Assembly (NCBI GenBank): GCA_963701075.1 | Contig: OY969559.1 | Location: forward strand, 960,001 to 1,024,000 | Direction of reading: 5' to 3' | DNA: 64,000 nt | DNA from: an uncultured Nitrososphaerota archaeon | GTDB taxonomy: Archaea; Thermoproteota; Nitrososphaeria; Nitrososphaerales; Nitrosopumilaceae | In this document: one piece after another, positions 18,653-43,110 of the stretch | Layout: each line of letters starts with the position of its first letter | How positions within the stretch are numbered: position 1 is the stretch's first letter | Made by a program: the position numbers and the translations under genes | The notes under the pieces: model-generated | Seen by the model: the letters and a program-made list of their open reading frames with translations, nothing else | Database searches by the model: none | Told to the model about the DNA's origin: nothing

Positions 18653-19535
18653 TTGTCACAGTAACCCCGTTTTCTTGAGGTATGAAGGTATGCTCTGCTT
18701 GAGCCACTCTTTGGTTATTTGCTTCTACTAAAACAGGATATGATCTGACAATTTTATTCTGGATCAATTTGTCTAAAAGTGTCCTAGCAGTTTTTTCATC
18801 CCATTCTGGCATGAACCATCTTAATGCAAATGGCAACATGTTGAATTTTTGCCAGATAAAATCAATGAACTTGTTTGCATCATCATCTTTTGCACGCTTT
18901 CTTGTGGCTAGTGAAAAAATATTTCTTGTCTTGCCCTCTCGAACAAACCCTAGACCATCTCGTGTTGTAACAAATGGTTCACATGCGTATGCTTCTGTTG
19001 ACTGGAAAGAAAATGATCCAATAGACCATATGTTTGGCACAGATTTTCCTGCATGTATGGTGAATCGTTCAAGAGAATGGCCACTGAGGTTTGCAATTGG
19101 TATGCCTCCCATTTGTTTTGCTGTATTTTCTATAATTTTTCCAACATCACTTGATTTTGTACCGACACGTATGATGGAGATTGCCTCTCTTAGGGCAGCT
19201 TCTGCAGCTTGGACAAGATAATCGTAATTTGGATCATAGCATACTGTTACTGCAGTATCTGCAATGTATCCGTTTATCTGCACACCCAAATCGATTTTAA
19301 GAAGATCAGTTTCTTTGACAACTATGCTGTCATTTGGTTCTGCAGTATAATGCGCTGCGATCTCATTTAAGCTGGCATTTACAGGAAAAGCACATTTGCC
19401 TCCTTTTCGCTCTATCTCCTTTTCAATTGATTCACAAACTTCTAACAGCGTTGAGCCAACATGATATTTTTTCCTAGCATTTTCTCTAACCTCAGCTGCG
19501 ATTTTACCTGCACTAATGTAGTCTTGAACCTGCAT
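18645..19535 (-). CDS. map: Methionine aminopeptidase type II
   Basis: AAHYT, DLGVQINGYIADTA, GHS, EPF, AQAEHT. Confidence 0.96.
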   Translation of the reverse strand: MQVQDYISAGKIAAEVRENARKKYHVGSTLLEVCESIEKEIERKGGKCAFPVNASLNEIAAHYTAEPNDSIVVKETDLLKIDLGVQINGYIADTAVTVCYDPNYDYLVQAAEAALREAISIIRVGTKSSDVGKIIENTAKQMGGIPIANLSGHSLERFTIHAGKSVPNIWSIGSFSFQSTEAYACEPFVTTRDGLGFVREGKTRNIFSLATRKRAKDDDANKFIDFIWQKFNMLPFALRWFMPEWDEKTARTLLDKLIQNKIVRSYPVLVEANNQRVAQAEHTFIPQENGVTVTTI

Positions 19536-19622
19536 TAGTTTAACATTGAATAGATTTGTTATTTAAAATCATCATCTCATATGGGAAGCTTAAATTGGGG
19601 ACTTTTTTGTGCATTCAACATC

Positions 19623-19696
19623 GGGATCGTGGTCTAGCTTGGTATGATGCGGGTTTTGGGTACCTGAGGTCGTCGGTTCAAATCCGGCCGATCCCA
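19623..19696 (+). tRNA. tRNA-Pro (TGG), intronless, CCA not encoded
   Basis: Acceptor GGGATCG/CGATCCC, anticodon arm CGGGT-TTTGGGT-ACCTG, T arm GTCGG-TTCAAAT-CCGGC. Confidence 0.95.
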
Positions 19697-19906
19697 TCTT
19701 TTGTATTTTATATTACTAAAATCATCACATGTCATTTCAATTAGTTATTATCTGACTTTCACACAATCTGATGAGTCAGGCGATGAAGAAGAGTTAGAGA
19801 CATGATAAAAAGATGAATGTGAATTCAGTGACTCGGAGCCTGGCGTATCTCATAGGTCACATTGAACAAAATTTACGCCTTAAATTGTGTTGGTGTATGA
19901 TATCAT

Positions 19907-21151
19907 ATGAGTGAATTCCAGAGAATAGCAAACAATGACATACATAATTCTGTTAGAGACGTTGAGCGATATAAAAATATCTTACAGAAATTCAAGAACG
20001 GTTCTGACTGTATAAAATTTTTGGATGCGTTACTTTTGTCAGGCAGAAGCTGGATTCGAATTGCAACTTATGCTTATTCATGTCAGAAGATTCTTCAGCT
20101 CAAAGACGATAAACCAATAATCTCATGGACTCGCGAGGATTGCGAAGAGATTGTAAAAAAGTTTGTAATTGCAAACATATCAAACGCTACAAAGGAGGGC
20201 CACTTGCGTACCCTCAAACGTTTGGTACACAGGTGCAAGACAAAGAAACTGATTCAAAAGGGTAGGGAAGACTATTGCGAAGAAGTTGCCTGGATTACGC
20301 CCGGATCTTTCTACGACAAATACGAAAAAATCCAGTCAAAAGACTTGATAAAAGACAATGAAATTCTTGCCATGATAAACGCTGTCAAGAAAATGGGAGG
20401 AAAATATGTAAAGAGAAACATTCTTGTCTTGTTTCTTCTACTTGATGGAAGCTTCAGGCCTGCAGAGCTTCTCAATATCACCATTGGTGGCATCGAATTT
20501 GGTACTGATTTTGTGAGGGTTCATACAACTGGCAAGACAGGCCCAAAAAGGCTCACCTTGGTAACAAGCTTCGTACCAATGAAAGAATGGATACAGGAGC
20601 ACCCCGATGCTGAAAATCCAGAAGCATATCTTCTATGGGAAGACAAGGAGGAAGGCAGGATGTCATACTGGCAGTTATGGCGTCTTGTAAAACGTTCGGC
20701 TCAAAAGGCTGGTATTAAGAAAAGAATCTGGCTCTACCTTTTCAGGCATACCAGTATTACAGAACATGTTAAGCGTCTTGGTCGTGTAGCTGCGGTTTAT
20801 GGAAATTGGAGTCCACGAAGTAAAATGTTGCAAAAGTACACGCACCTGGCAGATTCCGACCAGGAGGATGCTATCCTGAAGCTGCATGGCCTAAAAAAAG
20901 AGGACAACACTGATTCTATATTATTTGCAAAGATGTGTCCCCAATGCCACAAGGGAAACAGTGCAGATAAATCTCATTGCAGCAATTGTGGTACAATTCT
21001 TTCCAAGAAACTAGCCCAGATTCGCGAATCTAGAAATATGACTGATGTACTGAGGTTTGAAAGAAAATTCTCTTCAGAAATAAAGAGTCTACGGAAAACT
21101 ATAGAAGAACAACAAAAAATGTTTGAAGTCTTGCTAAAAAGTAAAAATTAA
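19907..21151 (+). CDS. Tyrosine integrase/recombinase with C-terminal Zn ribbon
   Basis: RPAEL (R), GKTG (K), YLFRH, GNW, KYTH (Y); CPQC..CSNCG. Confidence 0.92.
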   Translation: MSEFQRIANNDIHNSVRDVERYKNILQKFKNGSDCIKFLDALLLSGRSWIRIATYAYSCQKILQLKDDKPIISWTREDCEEIVKKFVIANISNATKEGHLRTLKRLVHRCKTKKLIQKGREDYCEEVAWITPGSFYDKYEKIQSKDLIKDNEILAMINAVKKMGGKYVKRNILVLFLLLDGSFRPAELLNITIGGIEFGTDFVRVHTTGKTGPKRLTLVTSFVPMKEWIQEHPDAENPEAYLLWEDKEEGRMSYWQLWRLVKRSAQKAGIKKRIWLYLFRHTSITEHVKRLGRVAAVYGNWSPRSKMLQKYTHLADSDQEDAILKLHGLKKEDNTDSILFAKMCPQCHKGNSADKSHCSNCGTILSKKLAQIRESRNMTDVLRFERKFSSEIKSLRKTIEEQQKMFEVLLKSKN

Positions 21152-21267
21152 TATTGTTTTCCTTTTAATTTTTTTTCAAGCTTTGTTACTTGCTCAAGCA
21201 TTTTTTCATTCTCTTCTTTGAGCCTGAGAATTAATTCTTTTGGTACATCTATTGTTTTTTCATTCAT
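21148..21267 (-). CDS. Small coiled-coil protein (39 aa, not in ORF track)
   Basis: MNEKTIDVPKELILRLKEENEKMLEQVTKLEKKLKGKQY; convergent with integrase, stops overlap. Confidence 0.4.
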   Translation of the reverse strand: MNEKTIDVPKELILRLKEENEKMLEQVTKLEKKLKGKQY

Positions 21268-21355
21268 AGTACATTCTACAGCAATTTTAGTTTTTAAAGT
21301 CAACACAAAGTTGATCAGAATATCCATCCAATAAATCTAATAAATGACCTTGTCT

Positions 21356-21393
21356 AGTACACCCCCGTGTACTTAGTACACCCACATGTACTT
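21356..21393. repeat. Tandem pair of 18-bp palindromes
   Basis: AGTACACCCCCGTGTACT-T-AGTACACCCACATGTACT-T. Confidence 0.9.
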
Positions 21394-21490
21394 GCATTCA
21401 TAAATGGTTGTAGACGCTCGAATGGTGCTTAATGCCAAACATTGCACAATCTTGCAACACGAGAGAAATTTCTACCTCCTGATGCAGGAC

Positions 21491-21527
21491 TCCTTGTAAA
21501 GTTTACAAGTTGTAAACTTTACAAGGA
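21491..21527. repeat. Perfect inverted repeat, 18-bp arms, built from two TTGTAAAnTTTACAA palindromes
   Basis: TCCTTGTAAAGTTTACAA-G-TTGTAAACTTTACAAGGA. Confidence 0.95.
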
Positions 21528-21547
21528 ATAGGCATATTGCTTATAAT

Positions 21548-21587
21548 GTAGACATTGTAGACAATATTTGTCGACATTGTCTACAAT
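21548..21587. repeat. Four-box GTMKAC palindromic site, left copy
   Basis: GTAGAC att GTAGAC aatattt GTCGAC att GTCTAC aat; box spacing 9/13/9; runs into ATG at 21586; TTATAA at 21541. Confidence 0.95.
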
Positions 21588-22764
21588 GAACAATCCATTC
21601 AACCCAGGCTCGGGAGTGCCTCCTCCTTATCTTGCTGGAAGGCAAGAGCATTTGGCAAGGTTTGAACAAATGTTAAAGAGCATTAATGACGGCCATGTTG
21701 AGAATCTGATAGTATATGGTTTACGAGGGACTGGAAAAACGGTCCTCATGGAAGAATTTAGTAAGTTGTGCATAAGTCACAGGTTCATTCCTATCAAGAG
21801 AGCACAGTTTAGTAAGAAATACTGTGACCCAGATGAGTTTACCAAGGCATTAAAATATGACATAAAGACTGCAATAGGTACATTTTCCAGGGTCAAGCGA
21901 ATAAAAGACAAGTTTACTTCAATTCTCTCTTATGTTAGACCAAAACATGTGGGAATCCCAGATGTTTTCTATTATGAACCGTCTTACAGTTCAGCTTCCG
22001 GCGTACCATTTGAGGATCATCTGAAGGAATATCTTACCAAGAATTGGAAAATCTTTGAAAACAGTAATTACAAAGGGGTTATCTTTCTCTTTGATGAATT
22101 TCATTCAATCTATGACGTACCATACAAAAAGTGGTTTGTTCTTTCTGATTTTATGGGGGTACTAAATGAAGTACAAAAGACTGGCTGTAGATATTTTGCA
22201 GTTTTTTCTGGCCTGCCAAACCTTCATCTCAATATTAAAGAAGCAAGATCGTATTCTGAACGCATGTACAAATCATTGGAAGTTGGAAATCTAAGTGAAG
22301 AAGAGGCAACATCTGCAATTACAAATCCGTTAGTTAAAAGTGAGTACAAGTTTGAAAAATCTCTTGTTGAAAAGATTGTAGTCGAAACTGGTCAGTATCC
22401 ATATTTTATTCAATTCTATTGTAAAGAGTTAATCAATATGAGTGATAAGAAGAAAATTTCTCTAAGTGAATACGAGAGAATCAGTCCTATGATTACAAAA
22501 CAACTCGATGATGACTTTTTTGATCCCAGACTGGAGATATTGAGTGATGATGAACAAAAAGTGATTGTTTCCATGGCACGTGCAACTGATACTGACATAC
22601 CGTTTGATTTTATCAAGAAAAAGACAAGAATGGAACGAACTACATTATCAAAATATATGAAAAGGCTCGAGGAGAAGGGTCTGGTTTATAACTACAAACG
22701 TGGAATTTACCGTTTCTCTGTCCCATTGCTAAAGCAGTATCTTGTACGAAAGTCGACAATGTAG
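21586..22764 (+). CDS. AAA/STAND-like ATPase with C-terminal winged HTH
   Basis: NPFNPG..PPYLAGR, Walker A GLRGTGKT, Walker B FLFDEFH, TGQYPYFIQ, C-terminal RLEEKGLV...GIYRF. Confidence 0.9.
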   Translation: MNNPFNPGSGVPPPYLAGRQEHLARFEQMLKSINDGHVENLIVYGLRGTGKTVLMEEFSKLCISHRFIPIKRAQFSKKYCDPDEFTKALKYDIKTAIGTFSRVKRIKDKFTSILSYVRPKHVGIPDVFYYEPSYSSASGVPFEDHLKEYLTKNWKIFENSNYKGVIFLFDEFHSIYDVPYKKWFVLSDFMGVLNEVQKTGCRYFAVFSGLPNLHLNIKEARSYSERMYKSLEVGNLSEEEATSAITNPLVKSEYKFEKSLVEKIVVETGQYPYFIQFYCKELINMSDKKKISLSEYERISPMITKQLDDDFFDPRLEILSDDEQKVIVSMARATDTDIPFDFIKKKTRMERTTLSKYMKRLEEKGLVYNYKRGIYRFSVPLLKQYLVRKSTM

Positions 22765-22791
22765 ACATTATTTGTCTACATCGTCTACAAT
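22752..22791. repeat. Four-box GTMKAC palindromic site, right copy
   Basis: GTCGAC aat GTAGAC attattt GTCTAC atc GTCTAC aat; 35/40 identical to 21548-21587; contains the ATPase stop codon. Confidence 0.95.
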
Positions 22792-22847
22792 TTGGCGCTT
22801 GTTATAGGAATTGGTACGGATAGTGCGCCAAACTATTTGATAAAGTA

Positions 22848-22877
22848 AAATCTGGAATCTGGACTTTATAACAAATG
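22848..22877 (+). repeat. 30-bp direct repeat, copy 1 (contains TTTATAA)
   Basis: AAATCTGGAATCTGGACTTTATAACAAATG, 28/30 identical to 23199-23228. Confidence 0.9.
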
Positions 22878-22929
22878 AGTTCCTTAAATGGCACATGATA
22901 TCTTGTAGATCATATATGCATTTTGTATC

Positions 22930-22965
22930 GTATGCAAAATTGCATACGTATGCAAAAATGCATAC
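22930..22965. repeat. Tandem pair of 18-bp palindromes
   Basis: GTATGCAAAATTGCATAC GTATGCAAAAATGCATAC, with a degenerate third copy at 22914-22929. Confidence 0.92.
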
Positions 22966-22983
22966 GGGATACTTGATTCAGCT

Positions 22984-23018
22984 ATTACGCCATTTAGCGT
23001 AACGCCTTTTGGCGTAAT
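22984..23018. repeat. Overlapping pair of palindromes
   Basis: ATTACGCCATTTAGCGTAACGCCTTTTGGCGTAAT. Confidence 0.85.
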
Positions 23019-23198
23019 GGATTCAAACTTGATACTTTCATGTCCATCATCCCTAGGGTCGTTATAGAACCTGGATTCTATCCCGGAATAGAGGCGGCTG
23101 GCAAAAACATCCTGCATTATAGGACCAAATTCTGATCCTATAACGCAAGATGAAGTCAACACAAGCTCGCTAATGCAAGTTTACTTACTTTATAAGGT

Positions 23199-23228
23199 AA
23201 ATCTGGAATCAGAACTTTATAACAAATG
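23199..23228 (+). repeat. 30-bp direct repeat, copy 2
   Basis: AAATCTGGAATCAGAACTTTATAACAAATG. Confidence 0.9.
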
Positions 23229-23737
23229 GAATTACTGATCGTCTGATTCCACGGATCAGGGAAGCTGCATCTTAAGATCAAAGTTTCAAGCGACTTTACA
23301 TTCGTAATGGGGACGAAAATCTAGTCATATCGACTCCTTTACTTGATGATGAGGGCGTCATTATAGCTAAAAAAATTTTTAGCTGAGTTGTTATACCATA
23401 TCTCAAACCGGGAAGTATATGGCCTGTAACGAACTAGTCATAAGTTGATGGTCTGCCTTCTGGAATGCTCTTTGGTAATAATATTATCACCATTTTTTAA
23501 AAGACATGCAACGATCTCCTATCTTATTGATAAAAAGATCACCTGGTATGATAAATAGTGCACCTAACAAAAAATATGGTTTGCCATCTATAACATACGG
23601 ATCAAAAGAGGCTCTGGAGTCTCAAGATGCTACTGATGATAGTGTTTCAGGGTTGATTCCGTCAAGCGTATACAGAGCAAAAATGCGAGAATACAACCAT
23701 TGGAACCTGAAGCTTAGAGTCAGGCTCACTCTCATGC

Positions 23738-24274
23738 TTGGTGCTTGACACACTTTATGATGCAATCAAGATGACACTACAGGAACTGCATCAGGCCACA
23801 AATGGTGACGTGAGGATGACTATTCACAGGCTCAGAAAAAAGGAGATGGTGACACAAAACGACGACAAAACATACTCACTGACAGAGCTTGGAAGATGGT
23901 TTACTATCTCAACCAGACTGAAACTCTCCTTTCTTGAGCTCTGCCTGCTCGCATGCGCTTGCTGTGTTCAGGCTAGGTATGCAAGGGATTCGAAGATCGG
24001 TTTTTACATGCGGCCAGCGTTTGATCGCATCTTTGGCAGGTTTTATACCAAAAAATACATCTCTGTCGTATTTTCTACACTGAAGAAGAAGGGTTATGCA
24101 GTAAAATTTTCCTACAAGACCATACGCGTGTACCCAAAGACATGCGAGGGTCTCATGTCGATGTATGGGGAGGACTTTAAGGGACTGGAGAGGTGGCTTG
24201 ACAGTGTAGAGGAAAACCAGCTGTACATTGCATGTGAGGTAACTGAAGGCTTGTTGAAGAATCATGCTGACTAG
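23738..24274 (+). CDS. Putative winged-helix protein; N-terminus possibly frameshifted
   Basis: RLRKKEMV...YSLTELGR and second LKKKGY motif; overlapping upstream ORF ends at 23748. Confidence 0.5.
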   Translation: MVLDTLYDAIKMTLQELHQATNGDVRMTIHRLRKKEMVTQNDDKTYSLTELGRWFTISTRLKLSFLELCLLACACCVQARYARDSKIGFYMRPAFDRIFGRFYTKKYISVVFSTLKKKGYAVKFSYKTIRVYPKTCEGLMSMYGEDFKGLERWLDSVEENQLYIACEVTEGLLKNHAD

Positions 24275-24824
24275 ATCGGAGAGAAGGCTTGTTCAGAATC
24301 CCAACGGGCTTCCATAAAGCTAGGTGTGGGTTAACAGATGCAGGATAAACAAGAAGATAAGAAGATTCGTATCAGACCTCAAGGTTATCAGTGAAAAAAA
24401 AAAACGATGAGCTTCACTTGAATCGTCATGTACTTGATGAGCTTTTAGGGGCAAAAAAGGCATTACAGAATTCTGTAAGGTCTAGTCAAAAAACCATATC
24501 TGATTCTGAAAATACCAGAAGTTCAGTTTTAGACAGACTAGAGAACTGGTAGTTCGTAACTCCTTAAAAAGAAAACCAATTTTGTGCCTGAGTAATACCA
24601 ACTCAAAAACAAAACAACACGAATCCGACATGCACATGCAAACTGGTAACATCACCACCAACCATACAGTCTAGAATTTTTTCACATTTCCAAAACACAA
24701 AAGCTCCAAAATTACAAACCAATTTACACCAAAACATTTCAAAATACTGTAATGTCTGTATGGCTCTTTTTTGGGCAATTCGTAAAACAAAACTCTCTCC
24801 TTAAATCCAACACCATACTAGCAT

Positions 24825-25004
24825 GTGTTGAAAATCGTACTGCAAAAGCAAAGGTCAAGGAACTACAACGGTGCCAACTACTACAAGTACCGTGTTACCA
24901 TACCCATACAAATTGTAGGGCAACTCAAACTAGAAGGAGGAGAAGAGCTTGAGATCTCTGTTGTGGAAGATGCAATCGTAATCAGGGAAACCCTTAACAT
25001 ATAA
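24825..25004 (+). CDS. AbrB/MazE/SpoVT family DNA-binding protein (59 aa, not in ORF track)
   Basis: Manual translation MLKIVLQKQRSRNYNGANYYKYRVTIPIQIVGQLKLEGGEELEISVVEDAIVIRETLNI; VTIP..I...L....G.EL signature. Confidence 0.8.
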   Translation: MLKIVLQKQRSRNYNGANYYKYRVTIPIQIVGQLKLEGGEELEISVVEDAIVIRETLNI

Positions 25005-25219
25005 AAAATCACATCAAAAATCTATCTAGTCCTCAGGTTCCTTGTTCCCCATATCTTTTATAACTTCTTTCTTTTTTTCTTTAATAATTTTTTTAGACTG
25101 TCTAACGACATTTTCTTTTTACAAACTTTATGATCTTTGTTATTTTTCCAGTGTTACTATCATTCTTAGCTATCTTGTGACTATTCCAACTGAATGAAGT
25201 GTCTTTTCGACCTCGCTCA

Positions 25220-25612
25220 TTATCCTTTTCTTATTTCACTAAGATCTTTTTCCACTGTTGACAGACTACTTCCTATTTTTTGTGCAATTTCCTTTTGCTT
25301 GTAACCTTCCAAGAATAGTTTCCTCACCTGATTTCTCCTGCCACTCACTTTGTCCTGCACCACCAGTTCCTTTTTCTCAGTCAGCAACTTGACTATGCCG
25401 CTGTTGAACTGTATCTGGATCTCCTTTGTTTTTTTGATCATTGTAACTAGGCCTAGGAATATCTCTTGCATCTTTTTTGTGAGATCACTGAGTGGAGGAT
25501 CTGTCTTGTTTGATTCCTCATATTTTTTTAGAATCTCGTTGTAAAGTTCGATGTCTTCTAGATGATGTCTGTTGTTTTGCTCGATTAGTTCGATGGCTTT
25601 CTTGACCGTCAT
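25220..25612 (-). CDS. Protein with C-terminal LuxR/sigma70-r4-like HTH
   Basis: RRNQVRKLFLEGYKQKEIAQKIGSSLSTVEKDL. Confidence 0.7.
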   Translation of the reverse strand: MTVKKAIELIEQNNRHHLEDIELYNEILKKYEESNKTDPPLSDLTKKMQEIFLGLVTMIKKTKEIQIQFNSGIVKLLTEKKELVVQDKVSGRRNQVRKLFLEGYKQKEIAQKIGSSLSTVEKDLSEIRKG

Positions 25613-25970
25613 ACGCCATATTCAAAACAGTTCTACACAAATTGCTGGTAACTCTATAATCTTCCTTTTCTTGCATACTACATTACATCAATCCTCTCAA
25701 ACTTTTTTTATTGATAGAATTAAAGTCATGTCTTAATCATAGGCTTTTAACAGAATATCATTCTAGGATAATTTTTTTTATGCTACAATGATACTGTCAA
25801 AAGAGGAACTCCAGGCAATAGTTCCAAAGTTACGAAGAAACTAGAAATGTTTAGGAAGATGTTTGGAGCTGTTTTGAGCCTTTTATGACCCACAACCAAG
25901 GAAATCTGTTCAAACATTGATTGATTGTTATGGACAGCCTGGCATAAAAATCTGCATGTCCTCGTAAACA

Positions 25971-27533
25971 CTATTTTGATTTAAGACGTAACAGAATTAG
26001 ATTAGTTTCCATTCTGCCATATTTTGTAGGATATTTGTCCTTCAGTTCTGTGATTAAAAGAGTAGCAGCAACGTTTGCTCCACCTTCACCATAATAATTA
26101 TCAAGATTTTCAATAATTTGTTTATCAAACACCTTACTTAGATCCTGAAAAAAGATCTCTTTAGATACGTTCATTTTTTGCGCCTGCATGTTTCGTTGAA
26201 GTAGATTAACTAATCTAAACAGAACACTAATTCCTCTGTTATGACCAAAATATGTTCCTGCCTTAAATGAATAATCTGGCATGTATTGCTGCATGTAAGT
26301 AAAAATCTCCTTCAACTTTTTGTTAGTAGTAGAAACTGTTTCTTGTACCAGATTGTTGCTAATCATTGCAGAAACAAGCGTAGTTAGAGTAATTTTGTCA
26401 CCTTTTTGTTCATCTGCCATTCCAAAATAGATCCTATTTTTGAAAAATGAATGATTTAGCTCGTCTGCGACTCCGACTGATATTTTTTCTTTAAACTCTC
26501 TTGTTCCTTCCTTCCAATCTAAATCAGCCTTTAGCAGTAGTATTAGGTTACCGTCTATTCTTTGTTGTTTTGAATTAATATCAACAAATGTCTTGATCTC
26601 CTTTTTTCTATCATAATCTTGTAATGCAATAACTGGCATAGAGTACATCTTCTGAATTTCCGATGATACTACTGAAAAACCCAAAAGCCTGTGCTGTCCG
26701 TCAATTATTCTACAAGTATTGTAACTTAATGGAAATTGTATTTTTACAACTTTTGGGCAATCCTCTGGTGGGAGTATTTTATTCGTCATATCAGGCACAT
26801 TTATCAAAATAGAATTTGGAAAGGAAAGTCCTTCTCCTTTTTTGATATTATTAGATATGTTGATCATTCTGTGTTCTTTCAAGGTCCTCTGATAACCCAC
26901 GTCTTTGGTTCTTCGTCTTGAAACATAACATGTGTGTAGTAAATTAAAGACTCTTTCTACAAAACAAAATACTGGTATGTCACCAATATAATATTGAATT
27001 GCATCAATCTGTTTTGATGTTTTCTCATCTTCAAATTCCAACCAATCAAGCAAGTCATTTTTAGCCCAAAGTCCAATTTTCTTGTAACAGTTTAAAAAAT
27101 ATTCATAATCATCTAGATATGCAACTTTGTTTAGTTTACCACTTTGTGTCATACGCTGAACTTCATGAGATGGATTTTCTGGAGTTTTAGTAGATAGATC
27201 AAAATATACTCTAATTACTTTTCTTGGTCTTAATTGGTATAGTTTGTTGACAATTGCCAAATTGTCACGATCTTCCCATTTAATAAAAAACGCATTTTTC
27301 TTATTACTAGAGTGTTTATCCTTACTCACCTCTACAAGAAACAAATAATCTTTGAAGGTGAAAATTAGATCAATTTCACCTATCCTTTGAGTTGATGAAT
27401 TTGTAATTATGGAATTTGCATCTACAAAAGTAAATCCTAATTTGAAAAGTAGATCTGCTACTTCACGCTCATTTTTATTTTCAATTTTAGCGATCTTTTG
27501 CTCTGTTTCTAAAATTTGGTCTTTTTCCATCAT
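25971..27533 (-). CDS. DGQHR (DndB-like) domain protein with N-terminal PD-(D/E)xK-like domain
   Basis: GYQR, FPNSILIN, IIDGQHRL, FVDINSKQ; N-terminal GEIDLIF...FLVEVSK. Confidence 0.85.
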   Translation of the reverse strand: MMEKDQILETEQKIAKIENKNEREVADLLFKLGFTFVDANSIITNSSTQRIGEIDLIFTFKDYLFLVEVSKDKHSSNKKNAFFIKWEDRDNLAIVNKLYQLRPRKVIRVYFDLSTKTPENPSHEVQRMTQSGKLNKVAYLDDYEYFLNCYKKIGLWAKNDLLDWLEFEDEKTSKQIDAIQYYIGDIPVFCFVERVFNLLHTCYVSRRRTKDVGYQRTLKEHRMINISNNIKKGEGLSFPNSILINVPDMTNKILPPEDCPKVVKIQFPLSYNTCRIIDGQHRLLGFSVVSSEIQKMYSMPVIALQDYDRKKEIKTFVDINSKQQRIDGNLILLLKADLDWKEGTREFKEKISVGVADELNHSFFKNRIYFGMADEQKGDKITLTTLVSAMISNNLVQETVSTTNKKLKEIFTYMQQYMPDYSFKAGTYFGHNRGISVLFRLVNLLQRNMQAQKMNVSKEIFFQDLSKVFDKQIIENLDNYYGEGGANVAATLLITELKDKYPTKYGRMETNLILLRLKSK

Positions 27534-27615
27534 TTTTGTTATAATTAATCAGTTATTACAAATTGTGTTTTTTAAAACCGAATAATGTCTATAAAGACCA
27601 AATCCTTCTCGTTTT

Positions 27616-29106
27616 ATGTTGTCTGATAAAGTAACTTTCGAATTTCTCAAGAATCATCTCTGGAAAGCAGCTGATATTCTAAGAGGTTCTTTAGACGCAG
27701 GTGAATATCGTCAGCCAGTCATGACTCTGCTTTTTCTAAAAAGACTAAATGACACATTTGAAGAAAATGCAGAAAAATTGCTCAAAGCAGGAAAGAGTCA
27801 GAAAGAAGCATATGAAAATCCTGCAAGACATAATTTTTTTATTCCAAAACAAGCACGCTGGAAAATATTATCAGAAACAACTGAAAAGGTTGGCGAAACA
27901 ATAGATCATGTCTGCAAATTAATAGAAAGAGAAAATCCAGATCTAGATGGTGTGATGACAAATACAAAGTATAGCGATAGAAGAAAATATCCTGACGATA
28001 AATTACGACAATTAATTTCTCACTTTAATTATCCATCATTAAAAAATTCTGATTTAGAAAAAGAAGACATTTTTGGTGATGCATATGAATATCTTTTAGC
28101 AGAATTTGCTGATGAAACAAAGAAGAAAGGTGGTGAGTTCTTTACTCCAAGAGAAATTGTTCGTCTTTTAGTTAGTTTAGTAGAGCCAAAAGAAGGTATG
28201 AAGATCTGTGATCCTACTTGTGGTTCTGGTGGAATGTTGATTGAATCAAGAAAATATGTGGAGCGTTCTGGTGGCAATCCACGAAATTTGATTTTAGAAG
28301 GGCAGGAAAGCAACTATGGAAATTTAGCCATGTGCAAGATGAACATGGTACTGCATGATATTATTGATTTTAAGATAGAATATGGAGATGTGTTATCAAA
28401 TCCAAAACTAGTAGAAGGTGGAAGGCTCAAAACCTACGACCGAGTTCTTGCTAATTTTCCTTTTAGTATGAATTGGGATAGTAAAATCGCTGCAAAAGAC
28501 TCATACAATAGATTCCGATTTGGTGTGCCGCCTGCAAAAGATAAGGCTGATTTTGCCTTTATTCAACACATGTTTTCTTGCTTAAATGGAAAAGGACAGG
28601 CTGCCATAATTTGTTCTCAGGGAGTATTGTTTAGGGGTGGTGAAGAGGTAAAGATTCGTGAGGGAATGATAAAAGAAGATGTAATAGAAGGAATTGTTGC
28701 ACTACCTTCCAATCTGTTTTATGGTACCGGAATACCTGCGTGTGTTTTGATATTAGATAGAAATAAACCTGCAAACCGTAAAAATAAAATAATTTTCATT
28801 CATGGCGCAAAAGACTATCAAGAGGGCAAAACTCGTAATACATTACGAGATTCTGATATAAAGAAAATTGTATCTGCTTTTAAGAATTACAAAGACATTG
28901 ACGGATATTGCCACATTGCGAATCTTGAAGAACTGCAAGAAAATGAGTTTAATCTTAATGTGCCAAGATATGTTGACATTTCAGAACATGAAGAAGAGAT
29001 TGATATTCAAAAAACAATTGATGAATTAAAAAAACTAGAGAAGGAAAAACAAGAACTTGAAGTTAGAGTAATTTCTAATCTAAAAGAATTGGGTTTTAAG
29101 GTTTAG
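27616..29106 (+). CDS. hsdM: Type I R-M methyltransferase subunit
   Basis: LWKAADILRG, GEFFTP, DPTCGSGG, motif IV variant NFPF, FNLNVPRYV. Confidence 0.95.
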   Translation: MLSDKVTFEFLKNHLWKAADILRGSLDAGEYRQPVMTLLFLKRLNDTFEENAEKLLKAGKSQKEAYENPARHNFFIPKQARWKILSETTEKVGETIDHVCKLIERENPDLDGVMTNTKYSDRRKYPDDKLRQLISHFNYPSLKNSDLEKEDIFGDAYEYLLAEFADETKKKGGEFFTPREIVRLLVSLVEPKEGMKICDPTCGSGGMLIESRKYVERSGGNPRNLILEGQESNYGNLAMCKMNMVLHDIIDFKIEYGDVLSNPKLVEGGRLKTYDRVLANFPFSMNWDSKIAAKDSYNRFRFGVPPAKDKADFAFIQHMFSCLNGKGQAAIICSQGVLFRGGEEVKIREGMIKEDVIEGIVALPSNLFYGTGIPACVLILDRNKPANRKNKIIFIHGAKDYQEGKTRNTLRDSDIKKIVSAFKNYKDIDGYCHIANLEELQENEFNLNVPRYVDISEHEEEIDIQKTIDELKKLEKEKQELEVRVISNLKELGFKV

Positions 29107-29109
29107 AAA

Positions 29110-30402
29110 ATGCAAATTGAAAAACAAAGACAAGGTTACAAACTAATTCAGATTCAATCTAGAAGATATGAAGAGATTCCAAATGATTGGAATGTTGTTA
29201 CATTAAAAAACTTGATAACTGACATAAAATCTGGTTTTGCATCTGGTGCGCGTGATGAAAATGGAGTAATTCAACTAAGAATGAATAACATTACTGATTA
29301 TGGAACACTAGATTTTAGTAAAATTCTGAAAGTTCCAATACCTGAGGATATTGATCAGTATGATCTGAAAAAAGACGATGTGCTTTTCAATAATACTAAC
29401 AGTCTTGATCTAATAGGAAAAACCACGATTGTTGATAACCTCATAGATCATACCTTCTCAAATCACATAACAAGAATAAGGACAGACAAGACAAAACTTG
29501 TTCCTTATTTCTTGATGTTGCTATTCTTAAAATACAAAGAACAAGCAATATTCCGTTCCATATGTAATACTCATGTGGGTCAATCTGGCATAAGCAAGAA
29601 TGAATTACTTAGGCTCAAAATCATCTGCCCACCATTAATAGAACAACAAAAAATTGCTTCAATTCTTTCATATGTTGATTATCTAATCAATCAAACACAA
29701 AAAATCGTTGAACAAACTCAGAGACTCAAGAAAGGAATATTGGAAAAGTTATTAACAAAAGGAATTGGACACACAAGATTCAATAAAACAAAACTTGGTG
29801 AAATTCCAGAAGAATGGAAAATTGAAAAACTTGAAAACATTTGTAAAATAACAGATACTCCGCATTATACATCGCCTTTGTTTAAAGACGGAATACCAGT
29901 TATTACTACCGCCGATTGTGATGAAAGTGGTAGAATAGATTATACACATGTAAATTTTACAACTAGAGAAGAATATCAAAAAAGACGGGAAACAATAAAT
30001 CCAGAAAAAGATGATGTGTTGTTTACTAGAGAAGCTCCATTAGGTATTGCAGTTGTAGTTGATAGAGACGAAATTGCGGTTGGTCAGAGAATTATTTTAT
30101 TAAAATTAGATAAAAAATTGATCAACAATATGTTCCTTATAACATTTCTAAATTCAGCAAGAGGTATTTATCAATCTAATTCTTTTGCCATAAAAACCAC
30201 AGTTGAACGAGTTAACATATCGGACATAAAGAAATTTGTAATTCCACTTCCTTCAATTTTAGAACAACAAAAAATTTCCAATATTTTATCAAATGTTGAT
30301 TTACAAATTCAAAAAGAACAAGAATACAAATCCAATCTTGAAACTCTCAAAAAAGGATTAATGCAAAAACTTCTCACAGGACAAATCAGGGTAAAAGTTT
30401 GA
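29110..30402 (+). CDS. hsdS: Type I R-M specificity subunit
   Basis: Two TRDs, repeated EIP..W and P...EQQKI..IL conserved regions, LKKGLMQKLLTG. Confidence 0.95.
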   Translation: MQIEKQRQGYKLIQIQSRRYEEIPNDWNVVTLKNLITDIKSGFASGARDENGVIQLRMNNITDYGTLDFSKILKVPIPEDIDQYDLKKDDVLFNNTNSLDLIGKTTIVDNLIDHTFSNHITRIRTDKTKLVPYFLMLLFLKYKEQAIFRSICNTHVGQSGISKNELLRLKIICPPLIEQQKIASILSYVDYLINQTQKIVEQTQRLKKGILEKLLTKGIGHTRFNKTKLGEIPEEWKIEKLENICKITDTPHYTSPLFKDGIPVITTADCDESGRIDYTHVNFTTREEYQKRRETINPEKDDVLFTREAPLGIAVVVDRDEIAVGQRIILLKLDKKLINNMFLITFLNSARGIYQSNSFAIKTTVERVNISDIKKFVIPLPSILEQQKISNILSNVDLQIQKEQEYKSNLETLKKGLMQKLLTGQIRVKV

Positions 30403-33377: not shown

Positions 33378-33475
33378 AAAGAAAGCTCCAGTATGGCACT
33401 AGTACTCTAGAATATTCTATAGTTAAAAGTAGACGCAGAAAAACATCTGAAATTATTGTAGATAAAGACGGAATT

Positions 33476-34081
33476 ATGATTCGTACACCCTATAACAAAC
33501 CAATTTCGGAAATTCAACAAATAATTCAGATAAAAAAAGGCTGGATTTTTAAAAAACATCTGGAATTTAAAAAAAGAACATCTGAAATTCCAATTTTCAC
33601 CTATAAATCAGGGACAAAATTACCTTACTTAGGACAAAATTACACTCTAACTGTACTGAAAGGCCAGAAAAAAGAAGGCATTGCATTTTCTAAAAAAGGA
33701 TTTTTTGTCAACTTAAAAACCAATGACCTAAAACAAGTAAAGTCATTATATGAAAAATGGTTATTTTCAAGAGCTCAAAAGATTTTTGAAAATAAAATCA
33801 AACTTTATTCTACAAAATTAGGTCTAAAGCCAGAGAAAATCATCATAAAAAATTTAAAAAACCGATGGGGAAGTACAACTAAGAATAATATCATTAATTT
33901 GAACATGAATTTAATTAAAACACCGCAAGAAATTATTGGATATGTAATATTACACGAGCTATGTCACCTCAAAATTAAAGATCACTCGTATCATTTTTGG
34001 GATTTAGTAAGAAAATTCATGCCTAATTATCCAGAAAAAAAGTGTTGGCTTGAAGTGAATAGTACCAGAATTGTTGATTAA
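33476..34081 (+). CDS. M48/YgjP-like (DUF45) metal-dependent hydrolase
   Basis: RWGS, YVILHELCH, HSYHFW; typical position after hsdR; reading frame stays open upstream to about 33335. Confidence 0.9.
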   Translation: MIRTPYNKPISEIQQIIQIKKGWIFKKHLEFKKRTSEIPIFTYKSGTKLPYLGQNYTLTVLKGQKKEGIAFSKKGFFVNLKTNDLKQVKSLYEKWLFSRAQKIFENKIKLYSTKLGLKPEKIIIKNLKNRWGSTTKNNIINLNMNLIKTPQEIIGYVILHELCHLKIKDHSYHFWDLVRKFMPNYPEKKCWLEVNSTRIVD

Positions 34082-34123
34082 TTCATTTGTGTTTCATTAT
34101 ATAAATATAAACTTTATGGTTAT

Positions 34124-34179
34124 TTTATTATCAAAAAATCACATAACTATTTAAAGAACTGTGATCTTATGATAATAAA
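34124..34179. promoter_or_regulatory. 20-bp inverted-repeat operator flanking a TATA box
   Basis: TTTATTATCAAAAAATCACA - 16 bp containing TATTTAAA - TGTGATCTTATGATAATAAA; 18/20 complementary; ends at the ATG. Confidence 0.8.
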
Positions 34180-36266: not shown

Positions 36267-36297
36267 TGTACACAGAAATTAATATGAGGTTATCAAA

Positions 36298-37177
36298 ATG
36301 AGTGTGGAAGAACGATTAAACACAATTCTCCCTGCAGCAGAAGCAGAACTAGGGAATAGAAACTTTGTTGCGATACTTGGTCTGTCTGGTGTAGGAAAAA
36401 CTGTATTGGTGACATTGCTTGGACATGCATTAGACAAATATTTTCTAAAGAAACAATCAGAAATCAAAGGACGTATCACTGGAGGAAGGGTATTTTTGGA
36501 AACATGTGAAAATGGAATGTTAGATGGCATATTCCCAGAAAGAACTCAGCTTCTAGCAAGAGAGGAAATCGTTATAGAAATGAACAGAAGCGGTGGAACT
36601 GGAAAAGCCATTGAAATTAGATTGCCAGATATCTCAGGTGAAACTTTTAACACCCTGTGTTTAGGTGATGAGATATCAGCTGAAAGAGAGAGCCTTAAAG
36701 ATATTTGAAACATCCAAACCAAAAGGCAAGACTTTTGGAGATATGACATACGTCATTTATGCTAAAATTTATCTCATTCTGTTAGATTGTTCAAAAATAG
36801 GCGAATGGGAAAAATTAGCAATCAGACATAATCAAGCATTAGCAACAATCAAAGAATTACAAAGTGTTAGACTAAAAAAAGAAATCAACAAAATAGAAAG
36901 TCCGATAGGAATTGTTTTAACAAAATCAGATACACTATCCAATCCAGATGAACCTGCAAAATCTGTGGTGGACAACAATATGGGAAGATTTCTTAACACA
37001 CTAGATTCGTTACATAAAGGTGAAAAAGAATTTTTTAAACTTCACGTGGATGTTGAACGAAATACAGATAATGCAATCACAGATCCAACTGCGTTAAAAG
37101 TAAGAAGACCGTTGACGTATAGTCACGATGAATACATGAGATTGCTCAAGTGGATTCATGATAACAGCTCGGAATAA
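36298..37177 (+). pseudogene. TRAFAC-class GTPase (DO-GTPase-like), split by a +1 frameshift near 36685
   Basis: G1 GLSGVGKT, G2 PERT and G3 DISGE in 36298-36708; G4 TKSD in 36665-37177; overlap contains GAAAGAGAGAGCC. Confidence 0.75.
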
Positions 37178-37179
37178 AA

Positions 37180-38469: not shown

Positions 38470-38642
38470 AAATCACACACTCAAAGAGGCTTTAAAAATA
38501 GGAGTTTCAAGAAGAACGTACTTTGATTGGCAAAAGAAAATAAGAGATGGAATTCCTTTTTCGTTAAAAACAAAGACTTTAAAAAAATTATTAATTTCTT
38601 ACTGAAAACTTATCTTGTTGGACAATAATAAAATGATTCTAG

Positions 38643-41600: not shown

Positions 41601-41892
41601 TTTACTTCTTGAAACGCTCAATCAAACTCACGGTAAGATTGAACCAATATACCAAATTCCAAAAGAACTTGTATCCTATGCAAAAGACTTTCCGATAGAA
41701 GTTTTACAATGTATGGAAAAGATCATCCAAGCATATCAGAAAACCTTTGAAATTCCAATGATGAAAGATCATTTAAGAGAAATCATCAAGATTGTAAAAG
41801 ATAGTAGCGATTCTACAGGAATAAGTAAGGCTGCAGAACTAGTTAATTTCCTTGGTTCTCTTGGTTATGAAGAATATAGGGATCTATTATAA
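38643..41892 (+). pseudogene. Large (~1080 aa) putative defence protein, HEPN-like N-terminus plus helical region, split by a +1 frameshift near 39652-39689
   Basis: NPERLFHAAHSLRE and RWFTSVSHH at N-terminus; WPESYYL and YWRPAIEEH; ORFs 38643-39689 and 39679-41892 overlap. Confidence 0.6.
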
Positions 41893-41942
41893 TAAAAAGA
41901 TGATATGTCAAAGTTGAAATTCCATAGTTTCTATTCTCAGAT

Positions 41943-42629: not shown

Positions 42630-42645
42630 TCTTATAAAACTTCAG

Positions 42646-42978: not shown

Positions 42979-43110
42979 ATTAGATAATGTGATGAATGAT
43001 CTAGTTAGGTTTTATGATGAGAAAACTTAACATTACAAATTTAAAATAAAATAGTGAATAACTCGAAAATTCGTAATAATTCCTATATAGCCTAATTCTA
43101 ACTCATAAAT

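What the first reader, a model, noticed from the sequence alone, without database searches (positions are those of the whole stretch)
21548..22791. ATPase-wHTH gene exactly bracketed by two 40-bp four-box palindromic direct repeats: candidate self-addressed gene cassette
Seen: both copies have GTMKAC boxes spaced 9/13/9 around a 7-bp centre (AATATTT / ATTATTT), are 35/40 identical and lie 1204 bp apart. The left copy runs into the ATG and the right copy contains the TAG. An upstream operator is expected for autoregulation, but a matching copy on the stop codon is not. Inference: recombination between the centres would excise a promoterless 1204-bp circle carrying the whole ORF and leave one site, resembling the neighbouring orphan sites. 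Inverted arms around a 6-8 bp spacer is tyrosine-recombinase core geometry. An alternative is NTP-dependent looping or roadblock repression by the encoded protein.
Basis: partly seen in the sequence, partly recalled or inferred. Interest (0 to 1): 0.9.

Follow-up and report, generated by a model that had tools for sequence, protein, structure and literature searches.

The report
Self-bracketed ORC-like DNA-binding ATPase gene
An archaeal gene for an ORC/Cdc6-like ATPase with a DNA-binding winged helix is framed at its start and stop by two copies of a four-box site that most likely binds its own protein, a conserved self-contained control unit and probably not a self-excising cassette.

Summary
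Two 37-bp four-box palindromes (GTMKAC boxes, 9/13/9 spacing) lie 1204 bp apart. One fills the gap between a TATA-like box and the ATG. The other contains the TAG. The box pair is found nowhere else in the 64-kb window. In the 1.9-Mb genome it recurs only at an 81%-identical paralog with the same layout.

The gene encodes an AAA_16 ATPase plus a C-terminal winged helix, with an ORC/Cdc6-STAND-like fold. The family is uncharacterised and sits in defence islands, integrated elements, plasmids and prophages.

Thaumarchaeal homologs keep a site cluster on or just after the stop codon. The box sequence changes together with the recognition helix (GTAGAC, GTAAAC, GTATCC, GTCGAC and others). In some relatives the downstream site is amplified into long arrays. 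Both sites stay 84-89% identical where synonymous sites are saturated.

Between two strains the site-to-site unit is about 70% identical while its flanks are 93-100% identical.

Excision is not supported. The site centres differ, site orientation varies between direct and inverted, solo sites are decayed genes rather than clean scars, and no joint was seen.

Best reading: an autoregulated unit whose product binds both ends of its gene, by looping, sequestration or insulation. Its biological role is unknown.

The parts
19623..19696 (+). tRNA-Pro (TGG). Likely integration target at the left end of an integrated element or defence island.
   Evidence: ARAGORN and Rfam tRNA, 56.5 bits. No matching right-end repeat was found.
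19907..21151 (+). Tyrosine recombinase (integrase) with a C-terminal zinc ribbon.
   Evidence: PF00589, E = 3.2e-12, 47 bits against a cut-off of 27.1. XerA-like NCBIfam hit far below its cut-off.
21541..21547 (+). TATA-like box TTATAAT, directly abutting the left site.
   Evidence: Read. The same or a similar AT-box (TTATAAT or TTTATATT) abuts the site in L002, L003, L111, L114 and L115. Homology between units extends 7-12 nt upstream of the site, covering this box. Its promoter role is inferred.
21548..21584 (.). Left four-box site. Boxes at 21548-53, 21557-62, 21570-75 and 21579-84; AT-only centre at 21563-69. Proposed autoregulatory operator spanning the stretch from TATA to ATG.
21586..22764 (+). 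ORF of 392 aa (398 aa if read from TTG 21568). AAA_16 P-loop ATPase (Walker A GLRGTGKT, Walker B DEFH) plus helical lid plus C-terminal winged helix.
   Evidence: PF13191, E = 6.4e-10, above its cut-off; weak MarR/HTH_36 hits at residues 319-370. AlphaFold model with pLDDT 85. Fold matches to archaeal ORC/Cdc6, SSO1545, PABY2304 and CED-4. dN/dS of about 0.05-0.1 against relatives.
22752..22788 (.). Right four-box site. Boxes at 22752-57, 22761-66, 22774-79 and 22783-88; centre at 22767-73. The TAG stop (22762-64) lies inside box 2. Proposed second binding site for the gene's own product.
   Evidence: A stop codon inside or touching the downstream site was seen in all 12 paired-site loci read.
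21355..21392 (.). 'Orphan' tandem palindrome (GTACAC-N4-GTGTAC, twice, 19-bp period). Not part of the unit.
   Evidence: These are the only 2 genome matches.
21491..21527 (.). 'Orphan' tandem palindrome (TTGTAAAsTTTACAA, twice). Conserved as a module in the ortholog's flank.
   Evidence: 39 nt at 97% identity in L003 (unpublished genome G132).
22929..23020 (.). 'Orphan' palindrome module (TATGCA-N4/5-TGCATA twice, then TTACGCC..GGCGTAA). Recurs elsewhere in the genome.
   Evidence: 94 nt at 81% identity to genome 6953-7046.

Best explanation
The 1.25-kb stretch is a self-contained, autoregulated single-gene unit, in the order TATA box, left operator, ORF, right operator.

The ORF encodes an ORC/Cdc6-STAND-like AAA+ ATPase with a C-terminal winged helix. 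The winged helix reads 6-bp boxes set 9 bp apart, two direct plus two inverted boxes per site.

Bound at the left site, which fills the space between the TATA box and the ATG, the protein represses its own promoter.

The right site, on the stop codon, is a second high-affinity anchor for the same protein. ATP-dependent AAA+ oligomerisation would let the two bound complexes cooperate. That would loop out the gene, hold a reservoir of protein at the locus, and shield the gene from transcription coming from either neighbour.

Protein and both operators are co-adapted. They are therefore inherited, exchanged and lost as one block within defence islands and integrated elements.

Shown: the sites, their exclusivity in the genome, their conservation, their co-variation with the protein, and the block-wise replacement of the unit. 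Inferred: binding by the protein, repression, looping, and the ultimate biological role (unknown; the setting suggests a defence-island or mobile-element function).
For: 1. Exclusivity. The box pair occurs only at this gene and its paralog in 1.9 Mb (7 of 7 matches). The full site (2 or fewer mismatches) is found in only 3 of 301 family genomes: in G000 (4 sites) and G132 (2 sites) flanking the gene, and in G503 (1 site) at a contig end where no gene could be read.

2. Conservation. The paralog shares dS = 1.35 with the window gene, so synonymous sites are saturated, yet the left site is 33/37 and the right site 31/37 identical. Pairwise homology between units in unrelated contexts ends 7-12 nt before the left site and 1-2 nt after the right site (L001/L002, L001/L111, L114/L115, L021/L018).

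3. Co-variation. GTAGAC-type loci (L001, L002, L003, L111, L114, L115, L117), GTAAAC-type loci (L017, L018, L020, L021) and the GTATCC-type locus (L116) each have their own box at both gene ends. The predicted recognition helix differs between the groups (LSKY, LMEL and VIRS respectively). L004 keeps LSKY and uses GTCGAC, a box that also occurs within the window's own sites. L113 has LSTY and uses GTAGAT.

4. Prevalence. Up-flank versus down-flank alignment is strong (score 43-81) in 9 of 28 archaeal loci. In 18 of 27 archaeal loci a 6-mer is repeated in both flanks, against 22.6% of mismatched locus pairs.

5. Promoter geometry. A TATA-like box abuts the left site in 6 GTAGAC-type loci, and the ATG follows 1-3 nt after the site.

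6. Fold and domains. AAA+ core, a long helical insert after strand 2, a lid and a winged helix. Best matches are archaeal ORC2/Cdc6 and the archaeal ATPases 2qen and 2fna. Walker A/B residues and arginines are invariant across 32 homologs.

7. Amplification of the downstream site. In L004 the same box-3-box-7-box geometry is repeated about 6 times. Arrays of 9-bp units follow the stop codon in L005, L007, L011, L012, L014, L025 and L028. This fits a dosage-sensitive protein-binding function.

8. Block-wise replacement. Between G074 and G163 the flanks are 93-100% identical, while the unit from about 10 nt before the left site to the end of the right site is about 58-80% identical with dS = 2.6.
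Against: No binding, expression or transcript-end data exist. No RNA run holds the locus.

The role of the right site is inferred only. No T-tract or TATA box is consistently associated with it (read by eye).

In the array-type relatives the upstream region often lacks the array's box (0 copies in L004, L007 and L011). Autoregulation through the same box is therefore not universal.

Bacterial homologs rarely show a paired motif: 6 of 76 loci against 4.2% of mismatched pairs, and 1 of 18 viral-contig loci.

Co-variation of box and helix is confounded with shared descent, because sites and gene are linked.

GTAAAC-type sites also sit 55-100 nt upstream of other genes, as relics. Another factor could therefore use such sites.
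Confidence: 0.55

Rival explanations
1. Replicon or partition module of an integrated plasmid-like element. The ORC-like protein would be an initiator or centromere binder. The flanking box clusters would be iterons or origin halves, as in P1 incC-repA-incA, F incB-repE-incC or the bipartite oriC around dnaA in Bacillus (all recalled, not checked here). The upstream cluster would also autoregulate.
For: ORC/Cdc6-like fold, with a weak TIGR02928 hit at the N-terminus. The gene sits beside an integrase at a tRNA gene. Long downstream arrays of 9-bp direct repeats in relatives look like iterons or centromeres. Homologs occur on 98 plasmid records and at 20 viral-contig loci.
Against: In the 3 bacterial plasmids inspected the homolog lies among cargo genes, not beside rep or par genes.

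The paralog and other relatives sit between defence genes: ApeA-HEPN and SIR2, TIR, an OLD nuclease, a Cas4-like nuclease.

Two copies with the same box coexist in one genome. For iteron replicons that would mean incompatibility.

No extended AT-rich unwinding element is evident; the AT-only centre is just 7 bp.

The genome has two bona fide Orc1/Cdc6 genes elsewhere.
Confidence: 0.15
2. Recombination cassette. The two palindromes would be recombinase core sites. Recombination at their centres would excise, or for inverted copies invert, the ORF, catalysed by a recombinase supplied in trans such as the adjacent integrase.
For: Inverted arms around a 7-8 bp AT spacer have the geometry of a tyrosine-recombinase core (the geometry rule is recalled). 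The unit has sharp site-delimited boundaries and was swapped between otherwise near-identical strains. In GTAAAC-type loci the two sites are near-perfect inverted copies of each other, spacers included, as if homogenised. One relic sits 77 nt after an integrase.
Against: Left and right centres are not identical: they differ at 1, 1 and 4 of 7 positions.

Relative orientation is not conserved between groups.

In the strain swap the outer half-sites travel with the unit, so the break lies outside the sites and not at their centres.

No solo GTAGAC site was found in 301 genomes.

GTAAAC solo sites retain 5' ORF stubs of varying length.

No joint appears in contigs of 4 runs.

An integrase is adjacent in 1 of 11 paired-site loci.

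Because dS is saturated, sharp boundaries are also what plain purifying selection on the sites would give.
Confidence: 0.05
3. The sites are bound by another factor, or act as nucleic-acid hairpins at the mRNA ends, and the ATPase is merely the regulated cargo.
For: GTAAAC-type sites occur without an intact ATPase gene, upstream of other genes. Each site can fold as a 15-16-bp stem. The right arm of the left site is complementary to the left arm of the right site (13 of 15 positions, counted by eye).
Against: The solo sites are demonstrably relics carrying ATPase 5' codons. Arrays of direct 9-bp repeats in relatives cannot form hairpins. The box identity tracks the ATPase's own helix. The motif occurs nowhere else in the genome.
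Confidence: 0.1

Closest known systems
Archaeal Orc1/Cdc6 proteins, including the non-initiator regulator Orc1-2 of Sulfolobales
   Same: AAA+ core with a helical insert after strand 2, a lid and a C-terminal winged helix. These are among the top fold matches: 1w5t, 1fnn, 2qby, 2v1u. Orc1-2 is a precedent for an ORC-family protein acting as a transcription regulator (abstract of PMC9738581, seen in the listing).
   Different: Sequence membership fails: TIGR02928 scores 22 bits against a cut-off of 181. No Cdc6_C (PF09079) match was listed in the Pfam scan. The target is short 6-bp boxes in a two-direct, two-inverted layout that brackets the protein's own gene, not ORB elements around an unwinding element.
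Archaeal ATPase family PF01637 (structures SSO1545 2fna, PABY2304 2qen); function unknown
   Same: Best structural superpositions, TM 0.55-0.63. Same ATPase-plus-winged-helix plan. Expanded, patchy distribution. A split PF01637 gene sits in another island of this genome.
   Different: The PF01637 score is below the family cut-off (19.9 against 33.2 bits). I found no description of self-flanking sites for that family (searches returned nothing relevant).
Iteron-plasmid basic replicons (P1 incC-repA-incA; F incB-repE-incC) and the lambda immunity region (OL-cI-OR). All recalled, not read here.
   Same: A DNA-binding protein's gene is bracketed by clusters of its own sites. The promoter-proximal cluster autoregulates and the distal cluster cooperates by looping or handcuffing, or sequesters protein. 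The protein-plus-operators specificity block is exchanged as a unit between relatives.
   Different: The protein fold differs: an AAA+ ATPase instead of a WH1-WH2 Rep or a cI repressor. The unit is a single gene with no linked origin or lytic promoters shown. The distal site overlaps the stop codon.
ORC/Cdc6-clade ATPases with wHTH in BREX and related defence systems (BrxC, BrxD, DUF499)
   Same: An ORC/Cdc6-clade ATPase followed by a wHTH, in defence islands, with fast-evolving DNA-binding parts (passages of PMC12839542). Weak PF10923 hit.
   Different: 392 aa, stand-alone, no BREX partner genes nearby. The PF10923 score is below its cut-off (16.4 against 22.2). No PADLOC model matches beyond a stray hit at E = 7e-4.
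Integron gene cassettes with attC sites
   Same: A single ORF ending in an imperfect four-box palindrome. The unit is modular.
   Different: The unit has its own TATA box and a copy of the site at its 5' end. The boxes vary with the encoded protein. No conserved GTTRRRY core (consensus recalled) and no cassette array. No integron integrase: the adjacent recombinase scores 68.5 bits against a cut-off of 220 for the XerA/integron model.

Membership tests
Pfam PF13191 (AAA_16) | Score above the curated gathering threshold | tested here: met
   40.2 bits against 32.6, E = 6.4e-10, residues 16-98.
Orc1/Cdc6 replication initiators (TIGR02928; Cdc6_C winged helix) | Family-model score above cut-off | tested here: not met
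   TIGR02928 scores 22.2 bits against 181.3, over residues 13-60 only. Two genuine Orc1/Cdc6 genes score 357 and 228 bits elsewhere in the genome.
Orc1/Cdc6 replication initiators (TIGR02928; Cdc6_C winged helix) | AAA+ fold with a helical insert after strand 2 (ISM) and a C-terminal DNA-binding winged helix | tested here: met
   The model has strand 67-72, helices 77-112 and 142-158, then strand 164-169, and a winged helix at about 320-392. Top Foldseek hits are ORC/Cdc6. This is a fold-level likeness only.
Orc1/Cdc6 replication initiators (TIGR02928; Cdc6_C winged helix) | Acts at a replication origin (ORB elements flanking an AT-rich unwinding element) | not testable with these tools
   No extended AT-rich element was seen between or beside the sites. 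Origin activity needs an experiment.
Pfam PF01637 (ATPase_2, archaeal ATPase) | Score above the gathering threshold | tested here: not met
   19.9 bits against 33.2. Structurally the closest family: 2qen TM 0.57/0.63 and 2fna TM 0.55/0.60.
STAND NTPases (nSTAND1, PF20703) | Score above the threshold; NTPase fused to sensor repeats or effector domains | tested here: not met
   24.9 bits against 27.1. No repeat or effector domain within the 392 aa.
Tyrosine-recombinase recombination site pair | Identical 6-8 bp overlap (crossover) region in the two partner sites (rule recalled) | tested here: not met
   Centres are AATATTT and ATTATTT in the window and ATAATTT and ATTATTT in the paralog. They differ at 4 of 7 positions in the ortholog, which is from the unpublished genome G132.
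Tyrosine-recombinase recombination site pair | Recombination products exist (circle, empty site, inversion) | tested here: inconclusive
   No joints in contigs of 4 runs; contigs miss rare forms. No clean solo site in 301 plus 41 genomes. The solo sites found are gene relics.
Integron gene cassette / attC | Promoterless ORF followed by one attC, in an array beside intI-attI-Pc (recalled) | tested here: not met
   The unit has its own TATA-like box and a 5' copy of the site. The neighbouring palindromes differ in box and layout. The recombinase is far below the integron/XerA model cut-off.
Iteron-type replicon (Rep flanked by iteron clusters) | Initiator gene with its own binding sites both upstream (overlapping the promoter) and downstream | tested here: met
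   This is the architectural likeness only.
Iteron-type replicon (Rep flanked by iteron clusters) | Location in the replication/partition core of a plasmid or element | tested here: not met
   In 3 of 3 inspected bacterial plasmids the homolog lies among cargo genes. Archaeal copies lie among defence genes.

The most novel reading that the evidence does not exclude
The unit is a new kind of one-gene anti-invader sensor. The fast-diversifying winged helix of an ORC-like ATPase would be aimed at iteron-, origin- or centromere-like repeats of invading plasmids or viruses. The copies bracketing its own gene would be self-decoys that keep the protein repressed and parked. An invader carrying many cognate boxes would titrate the protein off its operators, de-repress the gene, and be blocked by ATP-driven assembly of the protein on its repeats. 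The site-delimited specificity blocks (protein plus both operators) would then be balanced alleles that are swapped whole between strains.
Probability: 0.1. Interest if true: 0.85.

Novelty: new variant of a known kind. Interest (0 to 1): 0.55.

Why it matters
This gives a concrete, testable handle on a large family annotated only as 'AAA family ATPase / ATP-binding protein'. The family had 598 hits with E <= 0.001 among the 4063 candidates scored. It also turned up on 98 plasmid records, at 20 viral-contig loci, and across many bacterial and archaeal phyla in the genome collection.

For many thaumarchaeal members the likely DNA target can be read straight off the gene's own flanks, and it changes with the recognition helix. 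That yields a natural set of matched protein-site pairs for studying how ORC/Cdc6-type winged helices read DNA. It also suggests candidate orthogonal regulators for archaea, which have few genetic tools.

The data also show a gene and both its operators being replaced as one block between near-identical strains. This is a clear prokaryotic example of a co-adapted specificity module. It does not, on present evidence, reveal a new mobile-cassette mechanism.

Tried and rejected
- attR search: no exact repeat of 14 nt or more of the tRNA-Pro 3' end in the genome, and only 11-12-nt chance matches by blastn.
- Rfam on 19000-26000 found only the tRNA.
- The sigma-70 promoter and terminator scan is uninformative for an archaeon.
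- Expression: no RNA holder listed for the locus.
- Read laying of contigs from X2, X3, X5 and X6 gave no joints. The loose ends only showed the same palindromes in other contexts.
- Complex prediction with two copies returned 'no answer'.
- PADLOC found no family for the ATPase. NCBIfam gave only weak hits. The ESM Atlas gave only unnamed AAA_16 clusters.
- Literature: searches and 88/89 found no description of this architecture. One search was a malformed term, corrected. Supplements were not opened.
- Viral targets: scanning IMG/VR for a three-box GTAGAC site hit one 55%-GC contig, with no similarity to the ATPase (tblastn, no hit at E <= 1e-3).
- Small replicon idea: G215 contig C2 (8.4 kb) carries ordinary-looking ORFs, named by eye from their first residues and not family-scanned. 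It has no terminal overlap.
- Sharp homology boundaries as proof of mobility: rejected. dS is 1.1-1.35 in those pairs, so neutral flanks would be unalignable anyway. Only the G074/G163 comparison, with near-identical flanks, is informative.
- The 439-aa ORF beside tRNA-Ala looked like an integrase, but it has no Pfam match and is not among the PF00589 hits in the genome.
Full report
1. What is in the sequence

The two sites exist exactly as described.
- Left site, 21548-21584: GTAGAC ATT GTAGAC AATATTT GTCGAC ATT GTCTAC.
- Right site, 22752-22788: GTCGAC AAT GTAGAC ATTATTT GTCTAC ATC GTCTAC.
- Box starts are spaced 9/13/9 in both, and the sites lie 1204 bp apart.
- The 40-nt copies match at 35 of 40 positions.
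- The ATG (21586) follows the left site after one base.
- The TAG (22762-22764) lies inside box 2 of the right site.

GTMKACNNNGTMKAC matches 4 times in the window, all at these two sites, against 0.01 expected. It matches 7 times in the whole 1.9-Mb genome. The other 3 matches flank a paralog. A TATA-like TTATAAT (21541-21547) abuts the left site.

2. The gene

The 392-aa product matches AAA_16 above its cut-off. It has weak MarR/HTH_36 hits at residues 319-370.

An AlphaFold model built on 32 homologs (pLDDT 85.4, pTM 0.81) shows:
- an AAA+ core;
- a long helical insert between strands 2 and 3;
- a lid;
- a C-terminal winged helix.

Foldseek places it with archaeal ORC2/Cdc6 (1w5t, 1fnn, 2qby, 2v1u), the uncharacterised archaeal ATPases SSO1545 and PABY2304 (best TM, 0.55-0.63), eukaryotic ORC subunits, and STAND proteins such as CED-4. 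By sequence it is not a member of Orc1/Cdc6 (22 bits against 181), of PF01637, or of nSTAND1. The genome has two genuine Orc1/Cdc6 genes elsewhere.

Walker A/B residues and several arginines are invariant across the 32 aligned homologs. dN/dS against relatives is about 0.05-0.1. The gene is therefore functional.

3. Setting

The organism is a thaumarchaeon. The closest database protein, 94% identical, is labelled Nitrosotalea sp..

The gene follows tRNA-Pro (19623-19696) and a tyrosine integrase (19907-21151). Downstream lie a DndB-like gene, what reads by eye as a type I restriction-modification system, and a Dsr1-like gene.

Neighbours of relatives are also defence genes:
- ApeA-HEPN and SIR2_2 around the paralog;
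- TIR next to L017 and L021;
- an OLD nuclease next to L113;
- a Cas4-like nuclease next to L117.

The family is patchy: 23 of 401 class genomes have a match, often in several copies or as fragments. It reaches bacteria at 25-30% identity, with 593 confirmed relatives in the genome collection. It also occurs on 98 plasmid records and at 20 viral-contig loci. In the three plasmids inspected it sits among cargo genes, not beside rep or par genes.

4. The paired sites are conserved and co-vary with the protein

The paralog (81% aa identity) has the same TATA-like box, a four-box left site, and a right site with TAG in box 2.

Metagenomic and genomic relatives show the following.
- GTAGAC boxes at both ends: L111 (68%), L114 (62%), L115 (59%), L003 (94%; unpublished genome G132). 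L117 is truncated at its 5' end, so only its downstream site is seen.
- GTATCC boxes at both ends: L116 (53%).
- GTAAAC boxes with 10/14/10 spacing: a 40%-identical group from the same genus, comprising L017, L018, L021 and L020 (G231, unpublished). Here the TAA stop lies in box 1, and the downstream site is the inverted copy of the upstream one.

In all 12 paired-site loci read, the stop codon lies in or touches the downstream site.

The predicted recognition helix differs between box groups: LSKY for GTAGAC and GTCGAC, LSTY for GTAGAT, VIRS for GTATCC, LMEL for GTAAAC, and others for GTTGAC, GTTGTC and GTYGGC.

Quantitatively, 9 of 28 archaeal loci have strong up-versus-down flank similarity. 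In 18 of 27 a repeated 6-mer is shared by both flanks, against 22.6% of mismatched pairs. Among bacterial loci the figures are 6 of 76 against 4.2%. Individual bacterial loci such as L096 and L106 do show cognate boxes at both ends.

Because sites and gene are linked, this co-variation is what binding predicts but does not prove it.

5. Both sites are under selection, and the unit is exchanged as a block

Between the window gene and its paralog dS is 1.35, so synonymous sites are saturated. The left and right sites are nevertheless 33/37 and 31/37 identical.

Homology between units in unrelated contexts stops 7-12 nt before the left site and 1-2 nt after the right site. With saturated dS this shows selection on the sites, not mobility.

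The informative case is G074 against G163.
- The flanks are 93-100% identical.
- The stretch from about 10 nt before the left site to the last base of the right site is 58-80% identical, with dS = 2.6.
- The G074 unit is 89% aa-identical to one in a different context in G291.
- The outer half-sites go with the unit.

The replaced block therefore includes both whole sites, and the breaks lie outside them, not at their centres. I read this as exchange of a co-adapted protein-plus-operators allele by ordinary recombination in the flanks.

6. Downstream sites are often amplified

L004 (58%) repeats a GTCGAC box-3-box-7-box unit about six times, with the same geometry as the window's site. L113 has two copies. 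Arrays of 9-bp units (AAAGTNNNC) in higher-order repeats begin within about 60 bp of the stop codon in L005, L007, L011, L012, L014, L025 and L028. Direct-repeat arrays argue for a protein-binding role on double-stranded DNA and against a hairpin role.

7. Tests of excision

- The full GTAGAC-type site (2 or fewer mismatches) occurs in 3 of 301 family genomes: flanking the gene in G000 and G132, and at a contig end in G503, where no gene could be read.
- GTAAAC-type sites occur in 7 of 41 genus genomes, some without an intact gene. These solo sites carry the first 10-50 nt of the ORF. One carries a remnant of the second site. The window's own genome has such a relic at C1:4902-4989. They are decayed or internally deleted genes, not clean single-site scars.
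- Left and right centres differ in every GTAGAC-type locus looked at.
- Relative orientation varies between groups.
- No contig in four metagenome runs joins across the gene. This test is weak, because contigs miss rare forms.
- The integrase is adjacent in only 1 of 11 paired-site loci.

8. The 'orphan' palindromes

These (21355-21392, 21491-21527, 22929-23020) have other boxes and a different layout: two tandem palindromes each. They are conserved as separate modules.
- One is 97% identical in the ortholog's otherwise unalignable flank (G132).
- Another recurs at genome 6953-7046, beside a 439-aa ORF next to tRNA-Ala.

They look like operators for other factors, not scars of this cassette.

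9. Mechanism

Most likely (0.55), the protein binds both sites.
- The left site spans the promoter from the TATA box to the ATG. Bound there, the protein would block polymerase recruitment, as known archaeal repressors that bind downstream of TATA do (recalled knowledge).
- The right site is a second anchor that cooperates through AAA+ oligomerisation. It could loop the DNA, sequester protein, or insulate the gene from neighbouring transcription.

Closest analogies, recalled and not read here, are P1 incC-repA-incA, F incB-repE-incC and lambda OL-cI-OR. ORC/Cdc6-clade ATPases with wHTH are recurrent in defence systems such as BREX (passages of PMC12839542). An ORC homolog acting as a regulator is known: Orc1-2 (abstract seen in the listing).

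Rivals are a replicon or partition module (0.15), binding by another factor or an RNA-level role (0.1), and a recombination cassette (0.05).

10. Limits

- There are no expression or binding data.
- Three unpublished genomes were read: G132, G231 and G327.
- These claims rest on G132: the 94% ortholog, its 4-of-7 centre difference, and its mosaic flanks.
- These claims rest partly on G231 and G327: membership of the GTAAAC group and the count of solo sites.
- I found no paper describing this architecture. That covers only the held library.

Noticed in passing
window 25971-44325: The low-GC stretch (about 32%) after the locus is a defence island. It holds a DndB-like DGQHR protein (25971-27533, minus strand), what reads by eye as a type I R-M system (hsdM 27616-29106, hsdS 29110-30402, hsdR 30399-33377), a multi-wHTH protein with CARF/Csa3-like hits (34179-36266), and a Dsr1-like protein lacking the N-terminal part (39679-41892).
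   Followed up: partly
window 22934-23025 and genome C1:6953-7046: A 94-bp module of two tandem palindromes is 81% identical, in inverted orientation, to a module beside a 439-aa ORF (no Pfam match) next to tRNA-Ala. A second short match links window 24551-24585 to genome 8370-8404. The two islands seem to share a regulatory or att-like scaffold.
   Followed up: partly
genome C1:4902-4989 (L157/L168): Relic of a GTAAAC-type unit (upstream site plus decayed first codons). It abuts a frameshifted PF01637 ATPase whose C-terminal winged helix is MCM_C-like (5104-6226, minus strand).
   Followed up: partly
L004, L005, L007, L011, L012, L014, L025, L028 (relatives at 37-58% aa identity): Long higher-order arrays of 9-bp units (for example AAAGTAGGC about 60 times in L007) begin right after the stop codon of homologs. 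They look like iterons or centromeres and might break assemblies.
   Followed up: partly
L159 2509-2548, L162 4487-4526, L161 2498-2537: Relic GTAAAC-type sites, with their promoter region, sit 55-100 nt upstream of other genes: an M10-like secreted protease homolog in two genomes and a nucleotidyltransferase (MNT-type) gene. The orphaned promoter-operator may have been co-opted.
   Followed up: no
window 21570-21584 versus 22752-22766: The right arm of the left site and the left arm of the right site are complementary at 13 of 15 positions (counted by eye). A transcript running from inside the left site to inside the right site could therefore pair its two ends. This follows automatically from the palindromes and is untested.
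   Followed up: no
window 22843-22877 and 23194-23228: A 35-nt direct repeat (89% identity), with each copy ending in CTTTATAACAAATG: a TATA-like box then an ATG. It might mark two small promoter or leader units in the 700-bp gap downstream of the locus.
   Followed up: no
L170/L171 (IMG/VR contig, 55% GC): An unrelated viral contig carries dense clusters of GTAGAC/GTCTAC boxes with 9-bp phasing at two places, resembling an iteron region. No ATPase homolog is present.
   Followed up: no
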